A DNA stretch of 64,000 nucleotides from Bacilli bacterium (GTDB taxonomy: Bacteria; Bacillota_I; Bacilli_A; RF39; UBA660), in NCBI GenBank assembly GCA_017528315.1, contig JAFXOW010000005.1, forward strand, positions 1,986 to 65,985. Reading direction: 5' to 3'. The notes below the pieces were generated by a model. That model made no database searches and was not told where the DNA came from. It worked only from the letters and a program-made list of their open reading frames with translations. Made by a program: the position numbers and the translations under genes. Position 1 is the stretch's first letter, and each line of letters opens with the position of its first letter. Below are positions 35,906 to 57,188 of this stretch, piece after piece.

Positions 35906-36004
35906 TTTAATAGAGAATAGAGAGTGATAATGTGGCTAGTCAATTATTATTAAATTTTTTAATTAATTTTGAGGGAGTATTGTCCTCTTTTTTTTGGAGG
36001 GATT

Positions 36005-37000
36005 ATGGAAAAAATTGAAGAATTAGAAAAATTAAAAAAGTTAACAGAAAATGAAATAAGTTTAACAGAAGTAGCTAAAATTTTAGAAAAAAATAGTTAT
36101 CAAATACTTGGACTTTTACATGAATTAAGACTTCAAGGAATAAATATTGTTATTCAAAGAAGAGATGATGATATATACATGTATAATCATGGAGAAAGGG
36201 AATTAGAAAATAATAATAAATTTAATTTTTATACCAATGAATTTAATGAATTTAAATTTGTTGTAATTGCAGATACTAGAATCGGATCTAAACATCAACA
36301 ATTATCTATTTTAAATGATATTTATCAAAAAGCTTATGATATGGGATATATGAATGTATTTTTAGTTGGAAATATCTCAGAAGGACTTTATCCTTTAACC
36401 AATGTATATTCAGAAGATAATTTTTTAGATGATACTTTAGAACAGGTTGATTATATAGTTCAAAATTATCCTTTAGTAGAAGGAATGAAAACTTACTTTA
36501 TTACAGGACTTAAAGATGAAAAACATTTAAGAAATAATAAAATTAATTTAGGTAAAAGAATAAGTGATGCTAGATGCGATATGATATATTTAGGACATAA
36601 TTCTTGTAATGTTTTAATTGATAAAGTTAATGTATTACTTATTTCTACTCCTTTAAGTAAAACTTATACAGTGTCTTATAGACCAGAACAACAAATAAAT
36701 TCTTTTCGAAGTGAAGATAAACCCAATATTATGTTATTTGGTGGAGCTTTGCAACTTGAAAAATTTACTTATCGAAATGTTGCTTGTTTATCAATTCCTA
36801 GTGTCTGTGCTACTACACGTGAAATGAATGATAAAAGGTATTCTAATACGATTGGAGCTTGGTATGTAAGTTTAAAAACCGATAAATATGGTAATTTATT
36901 ATCACTAAATGCCATGGACTCTGTTTATTATCGTACAAATCCCGATGATTATATTAAAAGAAAAGTACTAAAGATTGGAGGGATTAATAATGGAAAGTAA
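36005..37000 (+). CDS. Degenerate calcineurin-like metallophosphoesterase with an N-terminal HTH-like domain (predicted pseudoenzyme)
   Basis: Aligns by eye with the next gene, but the metal ligands are lost: DTR, GNISEG, GLKDE, IST, GGALQ. Confidence 0.72.
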   Translation: MEKIEELEKLKKLTENEISLTEVAKILEKNSYQILGLLHELRLQGINIVIQRRDDDIYMYNHGERELENNNKFNFYTNEFNEFKFVVIADTRIGSKHQQLSILNDIYQKAYDMGYMNVFLVGNISEGLYPLTNVYSEDNFLDDTLEQVDYIVQNYPLVEGMKTYFITGLKDEKHLRNNKINLGKRISDARCDMIYLGHNSCNVLIDKVNVLLISTPLSKTYTVSYRPEQQINSFRSEDKPNIMLFGGALQLEKFTYRNVACLSIPSVCATTREMNDKRYSNTIGAWYVSLKTDKYGNLLSLNAMDSVYYRTNPDDYIKRKVLKIGGINNGK

Positions 37001-37997
37001 TAAAGATAATGTTAAAATGGATCAAATAGATAGATTTTATCGTTATATTAAAAATGGTATGAATGTTGAAGATTTTATGCAAAAATTTCATTTAAGTTAT
37101 AATGAATTAACAGGAATATTAGAATTATTTAGAATATATGGGCGAGTTGTTGATATAATAAAAAAAGAAGATGCACTTATTTTTGATAAGCCTATTACGA
37201 AAACAACATCAACTAAAAAGCCTGATATTGACTTTAAAAATTTAATTCACACGGAAATAGGAGTAGTATCTGATACTCATTTTGGAAATATCCATCAACA
37301 GATGCATTTATTAAATGATTTTTATAGAGAATGTTATAATCGTGGTATTACTATTATACTTCATTGTGGTGATTTAACTGACGGAAATTATTTAAATCGT
37401 CCGGAACAACCTCGTCAACAATTTTTACATGGTTTTGATGAACAAGTTGGCTATGTTGTTGATATGTATCCTGAAGTATCGGGTATTACTACGAAATATA
37501 TTTTAGGAAGTCATGACGAAACTCATTATAAAAATGGTCAAGCAACTGTAAGTAAATGGGTTTCAATGTGTCGAAGTGATATGGAATTTTTAGGCCAAGA
37601 TTTTGCTTCAATTAATATTAATGGAGTAAAAATATTTATGGATCATCCAGGAGGTGGAAGTGCCGCGTCAATTTCTTATAAACCTCAAAAAAGAATTGAA
37701 ATTTTAGAATCTAATTATAAACCTCAAATTCTCTTAATTGGTCATTATCATAAAAGTTATGCTTTTGTATATCGTAATGTTCATGGAATACAAGTTCCAT
37801 CCTTTTGCGATAAAACCCAATTTCAACAAAAACAAGGATTACTTAATGTTGTAGGTGCTTATATTTTAAATATATATTCTGATAAAAATGGGAATATTGA
37901 GTATTTTGAACCTGAAGAAATACTTTATGGTGAAAAAGATATGTGGGATGAAGGATTTAAAGATAAAAATAAAGTTAAAAAATTAGTAATTAGATAA
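36990..37997 (+). CDS. Calcineurin-like metallophosphoesterase with an N-terminal HTH-like domain (intact motifs)
   Basis: SDTHFG, CGDLTDG, GSHDE, MDH, GHYH. Confidence 0.85.
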   Translation: MESNKDNVKMDQIDRFYRYIKNGMNVEDFMQKFHLSYNELTGILELFRIYGRVVDIIKKEDALIFDKPITKTTSTKKPDIDFKNLIHTEIGVVSDTHFGNIHQQMHLLNDFYRECYNRGITIILHCGDLTDGNYLNRPEQPRQQFLHGFDEQVGYVVDMYPEVSGITTKYILGSHDETHYKNGQATVSKWVSMCRSDMEFLGQDFASININGVKIFMDHPGGGSAASISYKPQKRIEILESNYKPQILLIGHYHKSYAFVYRNVHGIQVPSFCDKTQFQQKQGLLNVVGAYILNIYSDKNGNIEYFEPEEILYGEKDMWDEGFKDKNKVKKLVIR

Positions 37998-38073
37998 TAA
38001 AAATGCTTGAAATAAATAGTTAATTTTGATAGAATAGTTTTGTTCTTAATTTAAGAAAACTATTTTATTTTTT

Positions 38074-38149
38074 GGCCTGTTGGTGAAGTGGTTAACACAT
38101 AGCCCTCTCAAGGCTACATTCATGGGTTCAAGTCCCATACAGGTCACCA
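38074..38149 (+). tRNA. tRNA-Glu(CTC)
   Basis: Acceptor stem GGCCTGT/ACAGGTC, anticodon arm TAGCC-CTCTCAA-GGCTA, T loop GGTTCAAGTCC, encoded CCA. Promoter TTGAAA-17-TAGAAT at 38007-38035. Confidence 0.95.
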
Positions 38150-38258
38150 ATTTTGAATTTAATCGAATTTTTACCTAAAGTTCGATTTTAGTATATATTA
38201 TTATATTTAGTATCAAAAATATTTTGACTTTTATGTATACTTATGATATTATGTATTT

Positions 38259-38373
38259 GTTGAGAGGAATCTCATATAATAAAAAAGGGGAAATACTTAA
38301 CTTGCCTTGTTGAGTACTTACCCTATAAAATAGTGTTAGTACTTAATCTAATGCAGATTGAGTACTATTTTTT
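38259..38373 (+). ncRNA. Candidate cis-antisense sRNA (type I antitoxin), locus 1; ends approximate
   Basis: TTGACT(38224-38229)-17-TATTAT promoter, no ORF, strong terminator TAGTACTTAATCT/AGATTGAGTACTA plus T run at 38337-38373. Overlaps the 3' end of a minus-strand peptide gene. Confidence 0.62.
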
Positions 38374-38452
38374 ATTATTTGAATCAATTGAGAAACAATT
38401 AATAAAATGATTATTAATATTAGAAATAAGATTAGTAAATTTTTTTCTTCAT
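38343..38452 (-). pseudogene. Small hydrophobic peptide gene (candidate type I toxin, 36 aa) interrupted by a one-base frameshift in an A7 run
   Basis: Promoter TTGTAT-18-TGcTATAAT, SD AAGGAGG, ATG at 38452. With A8 it reads MKKKNLLILFLILIIILLIVSQLIQIIKNSTQSALD*; as sequenced it reads MKKKIY*. Confidence 0.6.
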
Positions 38453-38714
38453 AATATCAAGCCTCCTTCCTTTTAGAAGTCGGCAAGTACTCAACAGTCA
38501 GTATTTCCTGTAATCATTATAGCACATATTAAAATTATAATACAATACATTTTTGTCATTTTATAAAAATGTTTTTTTTATAATTATCATAAAAAATAAT
38601 GAATTATTTTATTGAATTTTTATTTTTTTACATTTTATTTACACAATACATAATTTGACATTTTACTTATTTATTATTCTTTGATATACTTATTATAAGA
38701 ATAGAGGTGGTAAA

Positions 38715-41700
38715 ATGAAAAAATATATAATAATTATTAATATATTATTCTTTTTATGCATCTTAAATACTAAGGCTTTAACTTATAACGAAATAAAGGG
38801 AAGAAGTGAATGTAATAATTTTGAAGTAGCTGAAGCTATGAGTGATAAAAGTTTAAAACATTATGAATGTTTTGATAATTATGATTATGCAAAAAGTTAT
38901 ATGAATAATAATAGCAATGAAAATTTAGTAATACTTGAAAGAAGTAATAATTTAACTAGAATAATAGATGCTAAACTTGCTCTTGTTTATATGGATATTG
39001 GAGAAGAACTAACTTATTATTATAAAAATAGTAATTTAACGGGTTATATAACTTATATGAATCATCAAGGAACTTATGGTGCAACTGATGGAGTATTTTT
39101 AGAATTAAATTATTCAAATCATGCAATAAAAATGAAAACTAATGGAGTAGTTGGATGGACTAGAGACGGTAATTATAAAATAATACCTCTTAATTTTGTA
39201 GGAACAACTAGTTACTATCAAGTAACTAATGATGAATTATTACATTATTATTCTAAGGATATACAGACTTCTTACTCAAGTTATGGAAGAGCTATTGATA
39301 AAAAACCAAATAGTCTAAATACTGGTAAATATTATAGTTATGATGGTAATTATTTTTATAATAATTTAAGAAGCTTAATGATCGATTATAAAAATGGAAA
39401 CTATAATAACAGTGTTAATCGTGATAATCCCTATTATAATTACTATATGTATCTACCTCATCGAGGAAGAAGTAATTATACAGCTGATGATATAGATGCC
39501 TATCTAAAGAATACTAAAAATTTAATTGGTACTATTTATGGAAAACAATATGTTTATAGATATTCCAATATGTATGGAACAGGAATTTTCTTTAAGTCTA
39601 GTGAAACTTTATATGGAGGAAATGCTATCTTAATGATGTCACTTGCAACTAATGAAAGTGCTTTAGGACAGAGTAGAATAGCTATTGACAAAAATAATTT
39701 ATTTGGACATGCAGCCTATGATTCAAGTGCTTACTCATCAGCAACCGGATATCTAAATCCTTATCAAAGTATAATTGGTCATGCTAAAAGTTATATTAAT
39801 TGTGGTTATGCTAATCCAAATGATTCAAGATATTATGGATCTAATATGGGTAATAAAAGTAGTGGCATGAATATTATGTATGCAAGTGATCCAGTTTGGG
39901 GAGAAAAAGCAGCTAATTATTATTACTTATTTGATAAAGATAATGGTTATTTAGATTATAATTATTATCAATTAGGAATTACTACTGTTGATAGTGTTAA
40001 TGTCAGAACAGAACCAAATCTTACAAGTAGTATTCCCTTTAATTTAAAACATGAGCGAGTTCCCGTTATAATTCTTGGAGAAGTAAATGGTACTAGTGTA
40101 AATGGTAGTACTAAATGGTATAAAATAGTAAGTGATGCTAATCTAACAGTTGATAGAACTAGTATTCAGAGTTGTAGTTATACGAATTACTATAATTATA
40201 ATTCTTATGTTTATGTTCATTCATCATTTATCAAAAAAATTAATACTTCTTCAAATGGTAAATACAATGATATAAATACTTTAAATGATAAAAATATTAA
40301 ATATCAAGAATATTCAAGTGGAGCATCTTATACTCCGAAAATTGGAAAAATTAAAAATGATACCTATGTCTATGATACAGCAACCATGAGTGTTAAAACT
40401 GGAAGTATAGCTAAAACTTCCACAATGGTTCCTGTTTTCATGGAAGCGTCAATCAATGGAAAAGTAGTAGCTTATTTAATTGAAACAGATTTTAGTAAAA
40501 ATCAAAAAGGTTGGATAGATGCATCGAGTTTAGAATTTATAACAAAAGATTTACTAAAAGTAAATGTTACAGCTAATGGTGATTATTTAAATGTTTTTAA
40601 TACTCCAGGTGGAAGTGTACTTGAAAGTATATATGATGGAACTTTTGCAGTTATTTTAGATAAAACAACTTATAATAATGAACTATGGTTAAAAATTAAT
40701 TATAATTTAAATAATGGAACTGCTTGGATAAATACTAATATTTCAAGTAGTAAAGGAAGTCTTGAATATACCTTAAATAATATTGGAAATAGTAAACCTG
40801 AAATAATTATTGAAGACTTAATGATGTTTAAAGGAGGAGAGATAAATCCTTTAGATCATGTAAGAGCTATTGATAATGAAGATGGAGATATTACTAATAA
40901 AGTTAAAATAACTAAAAATACTATTAATACAGACGTAATAGGTGAATATGAAGTTACTTTCCAAGTAACAGATTCAAATAATCAAACTGTAACTAAAACT
41001 ATTAAAGTTTATGTATTAGATTTTAAAGAAGGAGAACCACTTTTCTATTTTGAATCTTTAAAACATATAAGTGATACTAAATTTGAAGTTAAAGGATTTT
41101 TAGGTGTTAAAGGAATGGATAATACTACGATGAGTCATCAACTTGCTTTTGTAAACGAAGATGATGAAAATAAAGTATATTTATTTGATTTAGATGAAAA
41201 CTCAAATCCTCCATTTAAAATGTCAAGTTTAGATGATGATAAATCATATAATTATCAAGGTGGTTGGTTTAAAGGAGAAATAGATTTATCAAAAGCTAAT
41301 ATTCCTGAAGGAAATTATTATATTGCTGTATTTGCATATAACTATGAAACAGGTTATTATACAGTTGACTATTATACTAACATTGCATATCTTGATATGC
41401 CAAGAAGAATAAATGCAAGTAGTCGTGGGATATCCTTTGATATTGATTATGGATTACCAGATAGTCCAATGCTTGTTACTATAAGAAATAATGGACTACT
41501 TAGTTATGAAACACCAACATCTTTTGATCCAACTTATAATTTCTTTAATGAATTAAAGATTACTAATAATACTTTAAGTATTACAGGAACAAGTCATAGT
41601 GCTTATGTTTCATATTCTAAAACTGATGATGTAAAAAGAGAAATAGTTTTTGAAAATATTACTACTTATGAAAGATTTAATTATACTTTATCTTATATTG

Positions 41701-41960
41701 ATAATGGTCTATATAAAATAGAACTTCCTGTCAGTGATGGAAAAGATAAAACTAGAGCTTGGTTTAAAAAAGATATAGATATTAGTAATTTACCTCAAGG
41801 AAACTATACTATTTATATTAAAACAACATCTAATAATAAAACTTACTATGGTGAACTTGTTGATGTTGCTTATACTGATTTTTCGAAAATTAATACTTCC
41901 AAATACCAATTTAATAGAATAGATGAAAAACGTTTAAGGGTAGAATTAACTGTTAAATGA
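38715..41960 (+). CDS. Secreted GH73 endo-beta-N-acetylglucosaminidase (LytB-like autolysin) with SH3-like and Ig-like domains
   Basis: Signal peptide; LATNESALGQSRIAIDKNNLFGHAAYDS; YASDPVWGEK; VNVRTEP and WYKI (SH3b-like); A.DNEDGDIT...YQVTDS-like (DUF5011) segment. Confidence 0.8.
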   Translation: MKKYIIIINILFFLCILNTKALTYNEIKGRSECNNFEVAEAMSDKSLKHYECFDNYDYAKSYMNNNSNENLVILERSNNLTRIIDAKLALVYMDIGEELTYYYKNSNLTGYITYMNHQGTYGATDGVFLELNYSNHAIKMKTNGVVGWTRDGNYKIIPLNFVGTTSYYQVTNDELLHYYSKDIQTSYSSYGRAIDKKPNSLNTGKYYSYDGNYFYNNLRSLMIDYKNGNYNNSVNRDNPYYNYYMYLPHRGRSNYTADDIDAYLKNTKNLIGTIYGKQYVYRYSNMYGTGIFFKSSETLYGGNAILMMSLATNESALGQSRIAIDKNNLFGHAAYDSSAYSSATGYLNPYQSIIGHAKSYINCGYANPNDSRYYGSNMGNKSSGMNIMYASDPVWGEKAANYYYLFDKDNGYLDYNYYQLGITTVDSVNVRTEPNLTSSIPFNLKHERVPVIILGEVNGTSVNGSTKWYKIVSDANLTVDRTSIQSCSYTNYYNYNSYVYVHSSFIKKINTSSNGKYNDINTLNDKNIKYQEYSSGASYTPKIGKIKNDTYVYDTATMSVKTGSIAKTSTMVPVFMEASINGKVVAYLIETDFSKNQKGWIDASSLEFITKDLLKVNVTANGDYLNVFNTPGGSVLESIYDGTFAVILDKTTYNNELWLKINYNLNNGTAWINTNISSSKGSLEYTLNNIGNSKPEIIIEDLMMFKGGEINPLDHVRAIDNEDGDITNKVKITKNTINTDVIGEYEVTFQVTDSNNQTVTKTIKVYVLDFKEGEPLFYFESLKHISDTKFEVKGFLGVKGMDNTTMSHQLAFVNEDDENKVYLFDLDENSNPPFKMSSLDDDKSYNYQGGWFKGEIDLSKANIPEGNYYIAVFAYNYETGYYTVDYYTNIAYLDMPRRINASSRGISFDIDYGLPDSPMLVTIRNNGLLSYETPTSFDPTYNFFNELKITNNTLSITGTSHSAYVSYSKTDDVKREIVFENITTYERFNYTLSYIDNGLYKIELPVSDGKDKTRAWFKKDIDISNLPQGNYTIYIKTTSNNKTYYGELVDVAYTDFSKINTSKYQFNRIDEKRLRVELTVK

Positions 41961-56769: not shown

Positions 56770-56814
56770 TTATTATTTGCTGTATCAAAAGATATTTGAC
56801 TTATATATGTATTT

Positions 56815-56933
56815 GTCAAGGAAACTTGCATGAAATAAAAATGGAAACATTCAGTTTTGGTATGCTGAATGTCTACCCAATAAAATGGTGAAGACATTTA
56901 ATCTATTAGTGATAGATTAGATGTCATTTTTTT
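56815..56933 (+). ncRNA. Candidate cis-antisense sRNA (type I antitoxin), locus 2; 5' end approximate
   Basis: 5' hairpin CAAG-GAAA-CTTG; 14-bp terminator stem GACATTTAATCTAT/ATAGATTAGATGTC plus T7 at 56893-56933. Convergent with a peptide gene. The -35 element is poorly defined. Confidence 0.55.
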
Positions 56934-57016
56934 ATTACTACTATCATAATGATAAGGAAAAATAAAATGATAGCAATGAATTTTAGAACTTTTATAATAA
57001 AAGCCTTAGTTTTCAT
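56924..57016 (-). CDS. Small hydrophobic peptide (candidate type I toxin), 30 aa
   Basis: SD GAAGGGAG, ATG at 57016, MKTKAFIIKVLKFIAIILFFLIIMIVVIKK*; intact. Below the ORF-track length cutoff. Confidence 0.72.
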   Translation of the reverse strand: MKTKAFIIKVLKFIAIILFFLIIMIVVIKK

Positions 57017-57188
57017 CTTATCAAATCTCCCTTCTTTTAAAATGGAAGGTAGACATCCCGCAACTGACGTTTCCATAAGATATATATTACATACTAATTA
57101 TACATTGCAAGTCATTTATGTTATTTTTGCAAATATAATTTTTTAATTTTTTAAATTTATTGTATAATAGAATGGAAAGGAATCTTAT

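What the first reader, a model, noticed from the sequence alone, without database searches (positions are those of the whole stretch)
38224..38545. Hidden type I toxin-antitoxin-like locus 1
Seen on the minus strand: promoter TTGTAT-18-TGcTATAAT; SD inside a hairpin GCC-GA-CTTCT-AAAA-GGAAG-GA-GGC; a hydrophobic peptide ORF; and a 5' UTR (GGAAATACT..TGTTGAGTACTTGCC, 38508-38482) complementary to a 3' segment (38287-38323) that is followed by a T run. Seen on the plus strand: promoter TTGACT-17-TATTAT, a ~115-nt ORF-less RNA and a strong terminator overlapping the last codons of the peptide. Established: SD sequestration, 5'-3' fold-back and a convergent 3'-overlapping antisense RNA are hallmarks of type I TA systems (txpA/RatA, bsrG/SR4, hok/Sok, aapA/IsoA). 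The peptide lacks the Fst motif and is not one I recognise.
Basis: partly seen in the sequence, partly recalled or inferred. Interest (0 to 1): 0.78.

Follow-up and report, generated by a model that had tools for sequence, protein, structure and literature searches.

The report
Toxin-dead copy, new type I TA family
This is one copy, with its toxin gene broken by a frameshift, of an unannotated and apparently undescribed family of small "membrane peptide plus antisense RNA" (type I toxin-antitoxin-like) cassettes that occurs in more than a hundred uncultured gut Bacilli genomes and is built like the bsrG/SR4 system of Bacillus subtilis.

Summary
It is not chance: more than 100 related loci conserve it.

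- **Architecture.** Locus 1 (38224-38545) has a minus-strand mRNA of about 228 nt whose 5' 27 nt pair with its 3' end. The SD sits in a hairpin. A convergent plus-strand RNA of about 115 nt has its own extended -10 promoter, and its terminator overlaps the end of the peptide ORF.
- **Family.** DNA-pattern scans and an HMM found 145 copies in 118 loci. Nearly all are in low-GC uncultured gut Bacilli or "Tenericutes" MAGs. There are two homologous peptide subtypes of 29 and 30 aa; the window holds one of each (locus 2 at 56833-57110).
- **Comparative support.** The helices covary. The ORF shows a synonymous-substitution excess. The antisense promoter is conserved, and so is a 5' hairpin that lies only in the antisense RNA.
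- **Databases.** No Pfam, NCBIfam, Rfam, PADLOC, PDB or literature match. The peptides are absent from 15 billion predicted proteins.
- **Closest analogue.** bsrG/SR4, by architecture and not by sequence.
- **This copy.** The ORF stops after 6 codons (MKKKIY*) because one base is missing in an A-run. A second one-base loss lies before the family stop codon.

Transcripts and toxicity remain untested. New member of a known kind.

The parts
38516..38545 (-). Toxin-mRNA promoter: -35 TTGTAT (38545-38540), 18-nt spacer, extended -10 TGcTATAAT (38524-38516)
   Evidence: Read from the sequence. The -35 matches only 3/6. In the family, TGnTAnnnT lies 4-9 nt upstream of the GGRA start in 41/87 loci, and a -35/-10 pair is found in 73/87.
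38281..38508 (-). Predicted toxin mRNA (about 228 nt), from G38508 to the U-run at 38286-38281
   Evidence: MFE -64.1 kcal/mol, z -6.9. nhmmer match to the family HMM at 38508-38283, E 4.9e-46. The ends are inferred from promoter and terminator signals, not mapped.
38482..38508 (-). 5' arm of the closing helix P1 (GGAAATACTGACTGTTGAGTACTTGCC)
   Evidence: All 27 nt pair with 38323-38289 in the MFE. The family shows covariation. Cognate 5'/3' duplexes average -33.4 kcal/mol, against -17.4 for the other subtype and -10.7 for shuffles.
38461..38484 (-). SD hairpin: GCC / CTTCT-AAAA-GGAAG / GGC, with SD GGAGG at 38466-38462
   Evidence: The 5-bp hairpin is present in the MFE. The outer GCC:GGC pairs form only when the 3' arm is unavailable. 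The predicted SD opening cost rises from 4.4 to 8.6 kcal/mol.
38432..38452 (-). Truncated toxin ORF, ATG...TAA = MKKKIY*
   Evidence: The family consensus is the 29-aa peptide MKKKDLLISFLILIIILLIVSLMILCIKK.
38440..38446 (-). A7 run: site of the one-base loss relative to the family (AAAAAAGAT in intact copies), which shifts the frame at codon 5
   Evidence: Alignment A1 and the ORF survey. The run is reproduced in independent unitigs. Related contigs carry the extra base here.
38343..38441 (-). Remainder of the peptide reading frame (NLLILFLILIIILLIVSQLIQIIKNSTQSALD*). It is reachable only after a frame shift and runs past the family stop codon.
   Evidence: The same C-terminal read-through '...IKNSTQS...' occurs in L085 and L062.
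38365..38373 (-). A6 run (38373-38368), one base shorter than in intact copies, followed by the family's TAG stop (38367-38365), which is now out of frame
   Evidence: Alignment A1. An extra base at 38367 is seen in related contigs.
38337..38367 (.). Hairpin used on both strands: the stop-codon stem-loop of the mRNA and the terminator stem (SL3) of the antisense RNA
   Evidence: Terminator scan: 13 pairs plus a T-run. There are 7 pairs with changes on both sides across the family.
38289..38323 (-). 3' arm of P1. Taken alone it folds into a local hairpin that, with the U-run at 38286-38281, is the likely intrinsic terminator of the mRNA.
   Evidence: The 3' 52 nt alone fold at -12.7 kcal/mol into a hairpin directly before the U-run. 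The global fold is 14.7 kcal/mol better than the best local-only fold.
38224..38252 (+). Antisense-RNA promoter: TTGACT, 17 nt, TGaTATTAT
   Evidence: 10/12 with TG. At the homologous place, 52/64 loci have TTGnnn-N16-18-TAnnnT, 49 with TG; the commonest -10 is TATTAT.
38259..38373 (+). Predicted antisense (antitoxin) RNA of about 115 nt: SL1 38261-38274 (UGAGA-GGAA-UCUCA), SL2 38287-38323, terminator SL3 38337-38367 plus T6
   Evidence: MFE -37.4, z -6.0. SL1 lies outside the mRNA and folds in 56/60 family members, with different stems and mostly a GAAA loop. The start is inferred, not mapped.
38074..38149 (+). tRNA-Glu(CTC), directly upstream of and co-oriented with the antisense RNA. Its 3' end marks the boundary of the cassette.
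   Evidence: The same arrangement is seen in 29/109 family loci. Homology with the closest genome ends exactly at 38150.
56833..57110 (-). Paralogous locus 2 (subtype B) with an intact ORF at 57016-56924 (MKTKAFIIKVLKFIAIILFFLIIMIVVIKK). P1 arms at 57074-57048 and 56878-56843; antisense terminator at 56893-56925 (+).
   Evidence: (MFE -67.2, z -7.3).

Best explanation
Locus 1 is a copy of a multi-copy, unannotated family of type I toxin-antitoxin-like cassettes in uncultured low-GC gut Bacilli.

Shown by sequence and comparison:
- The minus strand carries a promoter, an SD, and in intact relatives a 29-30-aa ORF. The peptide has lysines at both ends and a single hydrophobic helix.
- The first 27 nt of the mRNA pair with a segment just before its 3' U-run, which closes the whole RNA.
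- The SD lies in a hairpin stacked on that helix.
- The plus strand carries a convergent RNA of about 115 nt with its own extended -10 promoter and terminator. It is fully complementary to the last 115 nt or so of the mRNA, that is, to the stop-codon hairpin and the 3' arm of the closing helix.

Inferred by analogy with bsrG/SR4 and from folding energies:
- The 3' arm first forms a local hairpin that terminates transcription.
- It then exchanges partners with the 5' end, giving a closed, stable, poorly translated mRNA.
- The antisense RNA docks by loop-loop contact between its terminator and the stop-codon hairpin, then zips through the 3' arm.
- The resulting duplex would be an RNase III substrate.
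- The freed 5' arm lets GCC (38484-38482) pair with GGC (38463-38461). This lengthens the anti-SD helix and lowers translation further.

In this copy the toxin ORF is dead. One base is missing in codon 5 (giving MKKKIY*) and another is missing before the family stop codon. Both promoters and all RNA helices are intact. It is most likely a recently inactivated toxin gene with a still-functional antisense RNA gene.
For: **Family.**
- Pattern scans gave 11 true homologues out of 12 hits, then at least 119 loci.
- The HMM found 145 hits in 118 loci and exactly two in the window.

**Structure.**
- z-scores of -6.9, -7.3 and -6.0.
- In 83/87 members the 5' 25 nt close onto the last 50 nt.
- Cognate 5'/3' duplexes beat those of the other subtype.
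- RNAalifold finds compensatory pairs.
- 91.3% of cells are paired against 30-43% when slid; 311 cells change on both sides against 120 in shuffles; 0 of 500 shuffles reach the observed values.
- The global fold beats the local-only fold by 14.7 kcal/mol here and by 18.6 on average in the family.

**Coding.**
- 100 of 109 ORFs are intact.
- The synonymous fraction is 0.62 and 0.45, against 0.22 expected.
- The two subtypes align end to end.

**Antisense gene.**
- A promoter is present in 52/64 loci, 49 with TG.
- The SL1 hairpin folds in 56/60 loci, with stems CAAG/CTTG, GAGA/TCTC, GAAG/CTTC and CAAA/TTTG.
- The terminator is found by the scan.

**Mechanism analogy.**
Published probing of bsrG/SR4 shows helix P1 (nt 1-35 with nt 232-262), the SD in a 4-bp helix, SR4 covering SL3 plus the 3' half of P1, first contact between the terminator loop and L3, and the SD helix growing from 4 to 8 bp (PMC3834814).
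Here the predicted SD opening cost rises from 4.4 to 8.6 kcal/mol when the antisense-covered region is blocked. It rises in 80/86 family members.

**Broken ORF.**
Searches show the lesions. They are present in independent unitigs. Intact versions of both lesions occur in related contigs.
Against: - No stranded RNA data exist. No RNA run holds the window. The only RNA evidence is unstranded metatranscriptome contigs that cover a homologous locus (L008) and could include DNA.
- Toxicity of the peptide and rescue by the RNA are untested.
- SD pairing is only modestly above a flank-shuffled control (6.08 against 5.05 of 7 positions).
- Much of the covariation separates the two subtypes, so the number of independent events is smaller than the cell counts suggest. 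The tested structure was derived from these same sequences (caveats).
- The toxin -35 is weak (3/6).
- The antisense start is inferred. Many relatives also carry a second, weaker promoter-like box (TTGTCA-17-TAAAAT/A) that would give a shorter RNA.
- The family was collected with patterns taken from the window itself, so the invariance of TTGATA..ATGAA and ATCATTTTATT is partly by construction.
Confidence: 0.72

Rival explanations
1. The cassette encodes a small membrane peptide that is not toxic, for example a regulatory or accessory membrane protein. Its synthesis is tuned by a cis-antisense RNA. On this reading it is an antisense-regulated small-protein gene, not a toxin-antitoxin pair.
For: All the evidence bears on architecture, conservation and coding. 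None of it bears on toxicity. The peptides match no toxin family.
Against: These features are the recurring signature of known type I TA loci (PMC8594479; PMC3834814):
- a 29-30-aa peptide with one transmembrane segment and lysine ends;
- multi-copy and tandem occurrence;
- variable genomic positions;
- heavy translational silencing, by a closed mRNA, an occluded SD and an antisense RNA.

Occasional pseudogenisation of the ORF alone also fits.
Confidence: 0.13
2. Locus 1 is still a working toxin gene. The A7 run would allow a low rate of transcriptional slippage, or of -1 ribosomal slippage by tRNA-Lys, which restores the frame and yields a 36-aa peptide (MKKKNLL...KNSTQSALD). The frameshift would then be one more brake on toxin synthesis.
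For: - The break lies exactly in a 7-A run.
- Every other element of the locus is intact.
- C-terminally extended variants with the same '...IKNSTQS...' tail and an intact N-terminus exist in L085 and L062.
- That homopolymeric A runs are slippery is established knowledge, not tested here.
Against: - Among 109 family loci this is the only one with an N-terminal frameshift. 100 have plain in-frame ORFs with AAAAAAGAT at this place. The shift is therefore not a conserved design.
- Seven As is short for efficient slippage (own knowledge).
- A second lesion lies before the stop codon.
Confidence: 0.07
3. The unit is mainly a mobile or repeated non-coding element, MITE-like, with the two arms as terminal inverted repeats and a target preference for tRNA 3' ends. 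The ORF and the 'antisense RNA' would be incidental.
For: - Multi-copy, sometimes in tandem.
- A 27-bp inverted repeat flanks about 175 nt.
- 29/109 copies abut the 3' end of tRNA genes of at least 7 identities, in one orientation.
- Synteny with the closest genome breaks exactly at the tRNA end.
Against: - The ORF shows a synonymous excess and its second codon positions are the least variable.
- The SD and start codon are conserved.
- Conserved promoters lie outside the inverted repeat on both sides.
- Compensatory changes occur within subtypes.
- No transposase or integrase lies nearby.
- Mobility and TA function are not mutually exclusive.
Confidence: 0.05
4. The signals are a chance arrangement of AT-rich promoter-like and terminator-like sequence between a tRNA gene and the next gene. 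The hairpins would serve only as terminators for the neighbouring genes.
For: At 24% G+C, promoter-like hexamers are common. The scan found 14 in 900 nt against 8.9 in shuffles.
Against: More than 100 homologous loci sit in unrelated contexts and share the same ordered elements, with covariation. Folding z-scores are about -6 to -7.
Confidence: 0.02

Closest known systems
bsrG/SR4 of Bacillus subtilis (SPbeta prophage), type I TA (Jahn and Brantl 2013, PMC3834814)
   Same: - The mRNA is closed by a long 5'-3' helix P1.
- The SD lies in a short helix on top of P1.
- The stop codon lies in a stem-loop.
- A convergent antisense RNA is complementary to that stem-loop and to the 3' arm of P1.
- Its terminator loop is the natural first contact.
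- Displacement of the 5' arm is predicted to lengthen the SD helix.
   Different: - There is no detectable sequence similarity of the peptide or the RNA.
- The peptide is 29-30 aa against 38 aa.
- The mRNA is about 230 nt against 296 nt, and the antisense RNA about 115 nt against 183 nt.
- There is no separate terminator stem-loop after P1. The 3' arm region itself can fold into the terminator hairpin directly before the U-run.
- The cassette is chromosomal, multi-copy and often tRNA-adjacent, not prophage-borne.
txpA/RatA of B. subtilis (skin element) and the other Gram-positive families with a 3'-side antisense RNA (YonT, BsrE/H, SprG/SprF), as summarised in T1TAdb (PMC8594479)
   Same: The antisense RNA lies on the 3' side and overlaps the end of the ORF. 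A full duplex is expected. The SD lies in a double-stranded region.
   Different: The peptides are unrelated in sequence and length. The 27-bp end-to-end closure, with the antisense target equal to the 3' arm, is documented for bsrG and not for txpA in the texts read.
fst/RNAII (par of pAD1) and the Fst/Ldr superfamily
   Same: Convergent transcripts share a terminator region. The SD is sequestered in a 5' stem-loop. The 5' end is paired; the 'upstream helix' of fst RNA is from my own knowledge.
   Different: - There is no Fst model match and no match to solved structures.
- RNAII acts through direct repeats at the 5' translation-initiation region. Here the non-overlapping 5' part of the antisense RNA has no complementarity to the mRNA 5' region beyond chance.
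hok/Sok of plasmid R1
   Same: 5'-3' fold-back pairing of the full-length mRNA keeps it inert (as summarised in PMC3834814).
   Different: - Sok binds the 5' mok/hok initiation region, not the 3' end.
- Activation of hok requires 3' trimming.
- The Hok protein family is not matched.
- It is a system of Gram-negative bacteria.

Membership tests
Type I toxin-antitoxin system (class) | Small (<60 aa) hydrophobic peptide ORF with its own SD, conserved as a protein | tested here: met
   Family level: 100/109 loci have 24-33-aa ORFs. The synonymous fraction is 0.62 and 0.45 against 0.22 expected. The peptide has one hydrophobic helix flanked by lysines.
Type I toxin-antitoxin system (class) | The toxin ORF is open in this particular locus | tested here: not met
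   The ATG frame stops after 6 codons (38452-38432). One base is missing in the A-run 38446-38440, and a second one-base loss lies at 38373-38368. The same sequence is found in independent unitigs.
Type I toxin-antitoxin system (class) | Cis-encoded antisense RNA gene (own promoter and terminator) overlapping the toxin mRNA | tested here: met
   At the level of sequence signals only: promoter 10/12 with TG, and a terminator. The promoter is conserved in 52/64 loci. An antisense-specific hairpin is conserved with varied stems.
Type I toxin-antitoxin system (class) | Both convergent transcripts detected | not testable with these tools
   No RNA run holds the window. Only unstranded metatranscriptome contigs cover a homologue, L008.
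Type I toxin-antitoxin system (class) | The peptide is toxic when expressed, and the RNA neutralises it | not testable with these tools
   This needs expression experiments.
bsrG/SR4-type organisation | Long helix P1 formed by the 5' and 3' parts of the mRNA | tested here: met
   27 bp in locus 1. Present in 83/87 family members. Covariation shown.
bsrG/SR4-type organisation | The antisense RNA covers the stop-codon stem-loop and the 3' arm of P1, and antisense binding is predicted to tighten the SD helix | tested here: met
   By coordinates. By constrained folding, the SD opening cost goes from 4.4 to 8.6 kcal/mol and rises in 80/86 members. This is prediction only.
bsrG/SR4-type organisation | A separate terminator stem-loop 3' of P1 | tested here: not met
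   The U-run follows the P1 3' arm directly. The terminator hairpin is an alternative fold of that arm.
bsrG/SR4-type organisation | Sequence homology of the peptide to BsrG | tested here: not met
   No Pfam or NCBIfam hit. tblastn against 50,697 phage records found nothing. I did not verify that SPbeta is among those records, and BLAST's low-complexity filter may mask so hydrophobic a query.
Fst/RNAII (par) and Fst/Ldr superfamily | Fst-type peptide (Pfam/NCBIfam Fst models) | tested here: not met
   No match at E up to 10. A profile search against PDB chains gave no match.
Fst/RNAII (par) and Fst/Ldr superfamily | The antitoxin pairs with the 5' translation-initiation region through repeats outside the overlap | tested here: not met
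   Duplex energy between the antisense 5' part and the mRNA 5' region is -10.2 kcal/mol, against -8.8 for shuffles (sd 2.7).
hok/Sok | Hok/Gef protein family, and an antisense RNA acting at the 5' leader | tested here: not met
   No Hok model match. The antisense RNA lies at the 3' end. Only the 5'-3' fold-back is shared.
Any Rfam antitoxin or toxin-leader RNA family | Covariance-model match | tested here: not met
   In the whole window only the tRNA reaches a gathering score. Nothing relevant appears at E up to 10 in 38150-38650.

The most novel reading that the evidence does not exclude
The family is a self-contained, tRNA-3'-end-associated type I TA cassette built around a three-way RNA switch. 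One 3' segment of the toxin mRNA would serve in turn as:
1. the intrinsic terminator hairpin;
2. the partner of the 5' end, closing and silencing the mRNA;
3. the landing site of the antisense RNA.

On the other side, the -35 of the antisense promoter sits in the loop of a bidirectional terminator hairpin that insulates it from the upstream tRNA gene. The cassette would mark, and perhaps stabilise, variable regions that begin at tRNA genes in reduced-genome gut Bacilli.
Probability: 0.3. Interest if true: 0.65.

Novelty: new member of a known kind. Interest (0 to 1): 0.5.

Why it matters
Type I toxin-antitoxin systems are documented from only a few phyla and mostly from cultured model bacteria. 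They are missed by annotation because the ORFs are tiny (PMC12390103, PMC8594479).

This family is invisible in 15 billion predicted proteins, yet it is present, often in several copies, in over a hundred species-level genomes of uncultured gut Bacilli from rabbits, ruminants, mice, chickens and humans.

It would matter in four ways:
- It adds a new toxin family.
- It provides a natural covariation data set for a bsrG/SR4-like RNA mechanism that so far rests on one experimentally probed example.
- It shows a recurrent placement next to tRNA genes.
- It supplies compact parts for post-transcriptional control devices: a 29-aa peptide, a 115-nt RNA and a 230-nt mRNA.

For this particular locus the practical message is more modest. 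It is a decayed copy whose toxin gene should not be annotated as functional.

Tried and rejected
**Nucleotide and RNA-family searches.**
- blastn of 37900-38800 against phages gave no match. Against plasmids it matched only the tRNA.
- Rfam returned nothing but the tRNA at gathering score. At E up to 10 the only hits were two chance matches, PK-repBA and sR20.

**Peptide searches.**
- Pfam, NCBIfam and PADLOC gave only noise.
- A profile search of the PDB gave nothing.
- Exact look-up of six peptides found none in the collection.
- phmmer of the locus 2 peptide against 1.84 billion representatives gave 0 hits.
- tblastn of the peptide against phages and plasmids gave nothing, possibly because of low-complexity masking.

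**Pattern scans.**
- The viral-contig scan gave one hit (L128, a giant-virus MAG) that the family HMM does not confirm, so it is chance.
- L009 (Clostridium leptum) is a chance hit in front of a long secreted protein.

**RNA runs.**
- None holds the window.
- Chicken-gut metatranscriptome contigs cover the L008 homologue, but they are unstranded and uninformative about transcript ends.

**Context and mobility.**
- No TA copy lies within 3 kb of PcrA in 80 relatives.
- No integrase lies at 46-55 kb of the window.

**Other tests.**
- An Fst-like second interaction site is absent.
- SD sequestration as a stand-alone argument is weak against the control.
- I considered a covariance model of the full mRNA and dropped it. 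At about 230 positions it would probably exceed the calibration limit, and nhmmer plus pair counting answered the question.
Full report
**1. The observation**

The window has 24.3% G+C, and almost all long ORFs lie on the plus strand.

On the minus strand:
- TTGTAT at 38545-38540. It matches only 3 of 6 consensus positions, so the promoter scan did not list it.
- An 18-nt spacer, then the extended -10 TGcTATAAT at 38524-38516.
- A likely start at G38508.
- The segment GGAAATACTGACTGTTGAGTACTTGCC at 38508-38482.
- The hairpin CTTCT-AAAA-GGAAG at 38479-38466, overlapping the SD GGAGG at 38466-38462.
- ATG at 38452.
- Further on, GGGTAAGTACTCAACAAGGCAAGTTAAGTATTTCC at 38323-38289, followed by six Ts.

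On the plus strand:
- TTGACT, 17 nt, TGaTATTAT at 38224-38252. The scan scores this 10/12.
- A 13-bp terminator at 38337-38367 plus T6. The scan found one terminator where 0.1 was expected.

Folding supports the arrangement. The minus-strand RNA folds at -64.1 kcal/mol (z = -6.9), with all 27 first nucleotides paired to the 3' segment. The plus-strand RNA folds at -37.4 kcal/mol (z = -6.0) into three hairpins.

One correction is needed. The ATG frame is closed after six codons (MKKKIY*). The hydrophobic peptide lies in the frame reached by adding one base to the A7 run at 38446-38440.

**2. A second copy and a large family**

A self-comparison revealed a weakly similar (65%) second locus at about 56.8-57.1 kb.
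- It has the same order of elements.
- Its ORF is intact, 30 aa: MKTKAFIIKVLKFIAIILFFLIIMIVVIKK.
- The sequences of its two complementary arms differ from those of locus 1 (MFE -67.2, z -7.3).

A degenerate pattern over the SD/start region common to both loci was scanned in one genome per species. It returned 12 places, 11 of which are true homologues.

An HMM of the mRNA alignment finds 145 copies in 118 fetched loci and exactly two in the window.

The hosts are almost all metagenome-assembled genomes labelled uncultured Bacilli, Tenericutes, Erysipelotrichaceae or 'Mycoplasma sp.'. They come from rabbit, goat, cattle, deer, mouse, chicken and human guts, on contigs of 24-30% G+C.

The window itself is chromosomal DNA of such an organism. 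Its PcrA helicase is 82% identical to that of a roe-deer MAG. TGA ends 9 of 46 long ORFs, so the standard bacterial code applies.

The family is not found in viral contigs, phage records or plasmid records.

**3. The peptide**

The 102 non-redundant loci fall into two subtypes:
- Subtype A, consensus MKKKDLLISFLILIIILLIVSLMILCIKK, 29 aa. Locus 1 belongs here.
- Subtype B, consensus MKTKTFIIKVLKLIAIILFLLIIMIVVIKK, 30 aa. Locus 2 belongs here.

The two subtypes align end to end at 45-48% identity.

The ORF behaves as a protein-coding gene. Second codon positions vary least. Among single-base codon differences, 62% (A) and 45% (B) are synonymous, against 22-23% expected.

The peptides match nothing in any library tried:
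- Pfam, NCBIfam and PADLOC.
- PDB sequences.
- None of six exact sequences is in a 15-billion-protein collection.
- An exhaustive phmmer search of 1.84 billion representatives gave no hit.

They have evidently never been called as genes. Full-text searches for the peptide strings, and for type I TA in these taxa, found nothing.

**4. The RNA structure is conserved by compensation**

- In 83 of 87 members the unconstrained MFE pairs the first 25 nt with the last 50 nt.
- Cognate 5'/3' duplexes average -33.4 kcal/mol. The arms of the other subtype give -17.4, and shuffled arms give -10.7.
- On a MAFFT alignment of 64 mRNAs, RNAalifold recovers the inner part of the long-range helix and the stop-codon hairpin. 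Examples of the pair types are GC 30/AU 22/GU 10, CG 28/UA 28 and CG 32/UA 30.

I then counted a 39-pair structure that I specified:
- 91.3% of cells are paired, against 30-43% when the partners are slid by 1-3 columns.
- 24 pairs have changes on both sides.
- 311 cells change on both sides, against 120 in shuffles.
- 0 of 500 shuffles reach the observed values.

Caveats apply. Many of these changes separate the two subtypes. The structure was derived from these same sequences.

The closed form is predicted to be 14.7 kcal/mol (locus 1), 16.2 (locus 2) and 18.6 (family mean) more stable than the best fold restricted to local pairs. The 3' 52 nt alone form a -12.7 kcal/mol hairpin directly in front of the U-run. 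This is the likely intrinsic terminator.

SD occlusion is real but not very discriminating. On average 6.08 of 7 positions are paired, against 5.05 in flank-shuffled controls.

**5. The antisense gene**

At the homologous place on the opposite strand, 52 of 64 loci have TTGnnn-N16-18-TAnnnT. Of these, 49 have the TG extension, and the commonest -10 is TATTAT.

The first 20 nt or so of the predicted RNA lie beyond the U-run of the mRNA, so they belong to the antisense RNA only.
- They form a hairpin in 56 of 60 loci (mean -4.4 against -0.8 kcal/mol for shuffles).
- The loop is mostly GAAA.
- The stems vary: CAAG/CTTG, GAGA/TCTC (locus 1), GAAG/CTTC, CAAA/TTTG, AGTA/TACT.

The rest of the RNA is the exact complement of the mRNA's 3' arm and stop-codon hairpin.

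There is no additional Fst-like complementarity between the antisense 5' part and the mRNA's 5' region.

No stranded RNA data could be found. No RNA run holds the window. Metatranscriptome contigs from chicken gut cover the homologous L008 locus, but they are unstranded.

**6. How it most likely works**

The published structure of bsrG/SR4 (PMC3834814) has these features:
- nt 1-35 pair with nt 232-262 in a long helix P1;
- the SD lies in a 4-bp helix on top of P1;
- the stop codon lies in SL3;
[quoted passage not shown] - binding frees the 5' arm and extends the SD helix to 8 bp;
- decay goes through RNase III.

The present family has the same layout. When I blocked the antisense-covered region in silico, GCC (38484-38482) pairs with GGC (38463-38461). 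The cost of opening the SD rises from 4.4 to 8.6 kcal/mol. It rises in 80 of 86 family members, from a mean of 4.5 to 6.7 kcal/mol.

I therefore propose a bsrG/SR4-like dual action: duplex-dependent decay plus tighter SD occlusion. There is one difference. No separate terminator follows P1, so the 3' arm must first act as the terminator hairpin and then swap partners. These steps are inferred, not shown.

**7. This copy is toxin-dead**

Relative to intact subtype A copies, locus 1 has two lesions:
- AAAAAAGAT has become AAAAAAAT at 38446-38439. This shifts the frame at codon 5.
- The A-run before the family's TAG stop is one base shorter (38373-38368).

Among 109 near-full-length loci, 100 have ORFs of 24-33 aa. 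Locus 1 is the only one with an N-terminal frameshift. L085 and L062 share its C-terminal read-through '...IKNSTQS...'.

Unitigs from three metagenome runs reproduce 38150-38470 exactly. Related contigs from other metagenomes carry the extra base at both places.

Promoters, SD and helices are intact. Inactivation is therefore probably recent, and the antisense gene may still be expressed. Low-level slippage on the A7 run cannot be excluded, but it is not a family feature.

**8. Context**

Locus 1 sits 134 nt from tRNA-Glu(CTC) (38074-38149). The tRNA is upstream of the antisense RNA and co-oriented with it.

This arrangement recurs.
- In 29 of 109 loci a tRNA gene lies 72-143 nt beyond the mRNA's 3' end. 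The identities are Arg, Met, Leu, Thr, His, Ala or Glu.
- The tRNA is always on the antisense strand. On the other side of the cassette there is one such case.
- In many loci the 70 nt or so after the tRNA CCA end are conserved. They contain a terminator-like hairpin whose loop holds the antisense -35.

In the closest genome (L209), the flanking metallophosphoesterase gene and tRNA-Glu(CTC) are syntenic. Homology stops exactly at the tRNA's 3' end, and no cassette is present. I found no integrase nearby.

**9. Verdict**

- The locus belongs to a new family of a known kind, type I TA with bsrG/SR4-like organisation.
- This copy is a toxin pseudogene.
- Transcripts, toxicity and neutralisation remain to be shown.

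Noticed in passing
window 56833-57110 (minus strand); antisense terminator 56893-56925 (+): This is a second, paralogous cassette (subtype B) with an intact 30-aa ORF (57016-56924). Its antisense promoter looks non-canonical. TTGACT is followed directly by TATATAT, as if the spacer were deleted. The scan offers only TTGTCA-18-AAAAAT (56813-56842), which would give a shorter RNA lacking the 5' hairpin. So the copy with the live toxin has the doubtful antitoxin promoter, and the copy with the dead toxin has the good one.
   Followed up: partly
window 38074-38149 and 28 other family loci (e.g. L007, L029, L046, L047, L050, L074, L082): In 29 of 109 family loci a tRNA gene (Arg, Met, Leu, Thr, His, Ala or Glu) lies 72-143 nt beyond the toxin mRNA's 3' end. 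It is always on the antisense strand. The other side of the cassette has one such case. The background density is 0.06 tRNA genes per kb.
   Followed up: partly
e.g. L007, L043, L047, L063, L090 (between the tRNA CCA end and the antisense -10): A conserved trailer of about 70 nt follows the tRNA: GATTGATAGGAAACTCGGAAAATTCGAGTAAAAATAGAAAACGACTTGTAAAAAGTCGTTTTTATGTTATTATG. It contains a terminator-like hairpin (stems covary: CGAC/GTCG, CGTAC/GTACG, GGAC/GTCC, AGAC/GTCT) whose loop holds the -35 of the antisense promoter. Window locus 1 lacks it.
   Followed up: partly
window 38150 versus L209 4133: Homology with the closest genome (roe-deer MAG RGIG4316) runs through the metallophosphoesterase gene (85% aa identity) and the same tRNA-Glu(CTC). 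It ends exactly at the tRNA 3' end. L209 has no cassette there and has unrelated genes downstream.
   Followed up: yes
window 38161-38189 (+): An AT-rich hairpin, AATCGAA...TTCGATT followed by Ts, lies just after the tRNA-Glu gene. It is probably the tRNA's own weak terminator. The scan's rule of at least three G-C pairs excludes it.
   Followed up: no
L006, L040, L054, L061 and 19 other fetched loci: Cassettes occur two or three times within 8 kb (23 of 118 loci). Some are head to tail about 385 nt apart (L061 at 5678 and 6064), and some mix subtypes A and B (L040).
   Followed up: partly
L085 2517-2743, L062 1441-1665, window 38343-38373: Three loci share loss of the family stop codon through a shortened A-run. 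This gives C-terminal extensions that begin ...(I/V)KNSTQS and read through the terminator hairpin.
   Followed up: partly
window 35969-37000 and 36975-37997 (+): Two adjacent, overlapping, apparently paralogous ORFs of 343 and 340 aa. The second has a calcineurin-like metallophosphoesterase domain and is widely conserved in these Bacilli. The first has no Pfam hit.
   Followed up: no
window 38715-41960 (+): Directly next to locus 1 lies a 1081-aa secreted protein with glucosaminidase, SH3 and bacterial Ig-like domains. It is followed by a fused ABC-ATPase/FtsX permease and a histidine kinase. This gene set is absent at the same place in the closest genome.
   Followed up: no
L008 5500-6700: Chicken-gut metatranscriptome contigs cover this homologous cassette. 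In one run a contig break falls 10-14 nt inside the predicted mRNA start. The contigs are unstranded and may include DNA.
   Followed up: partly
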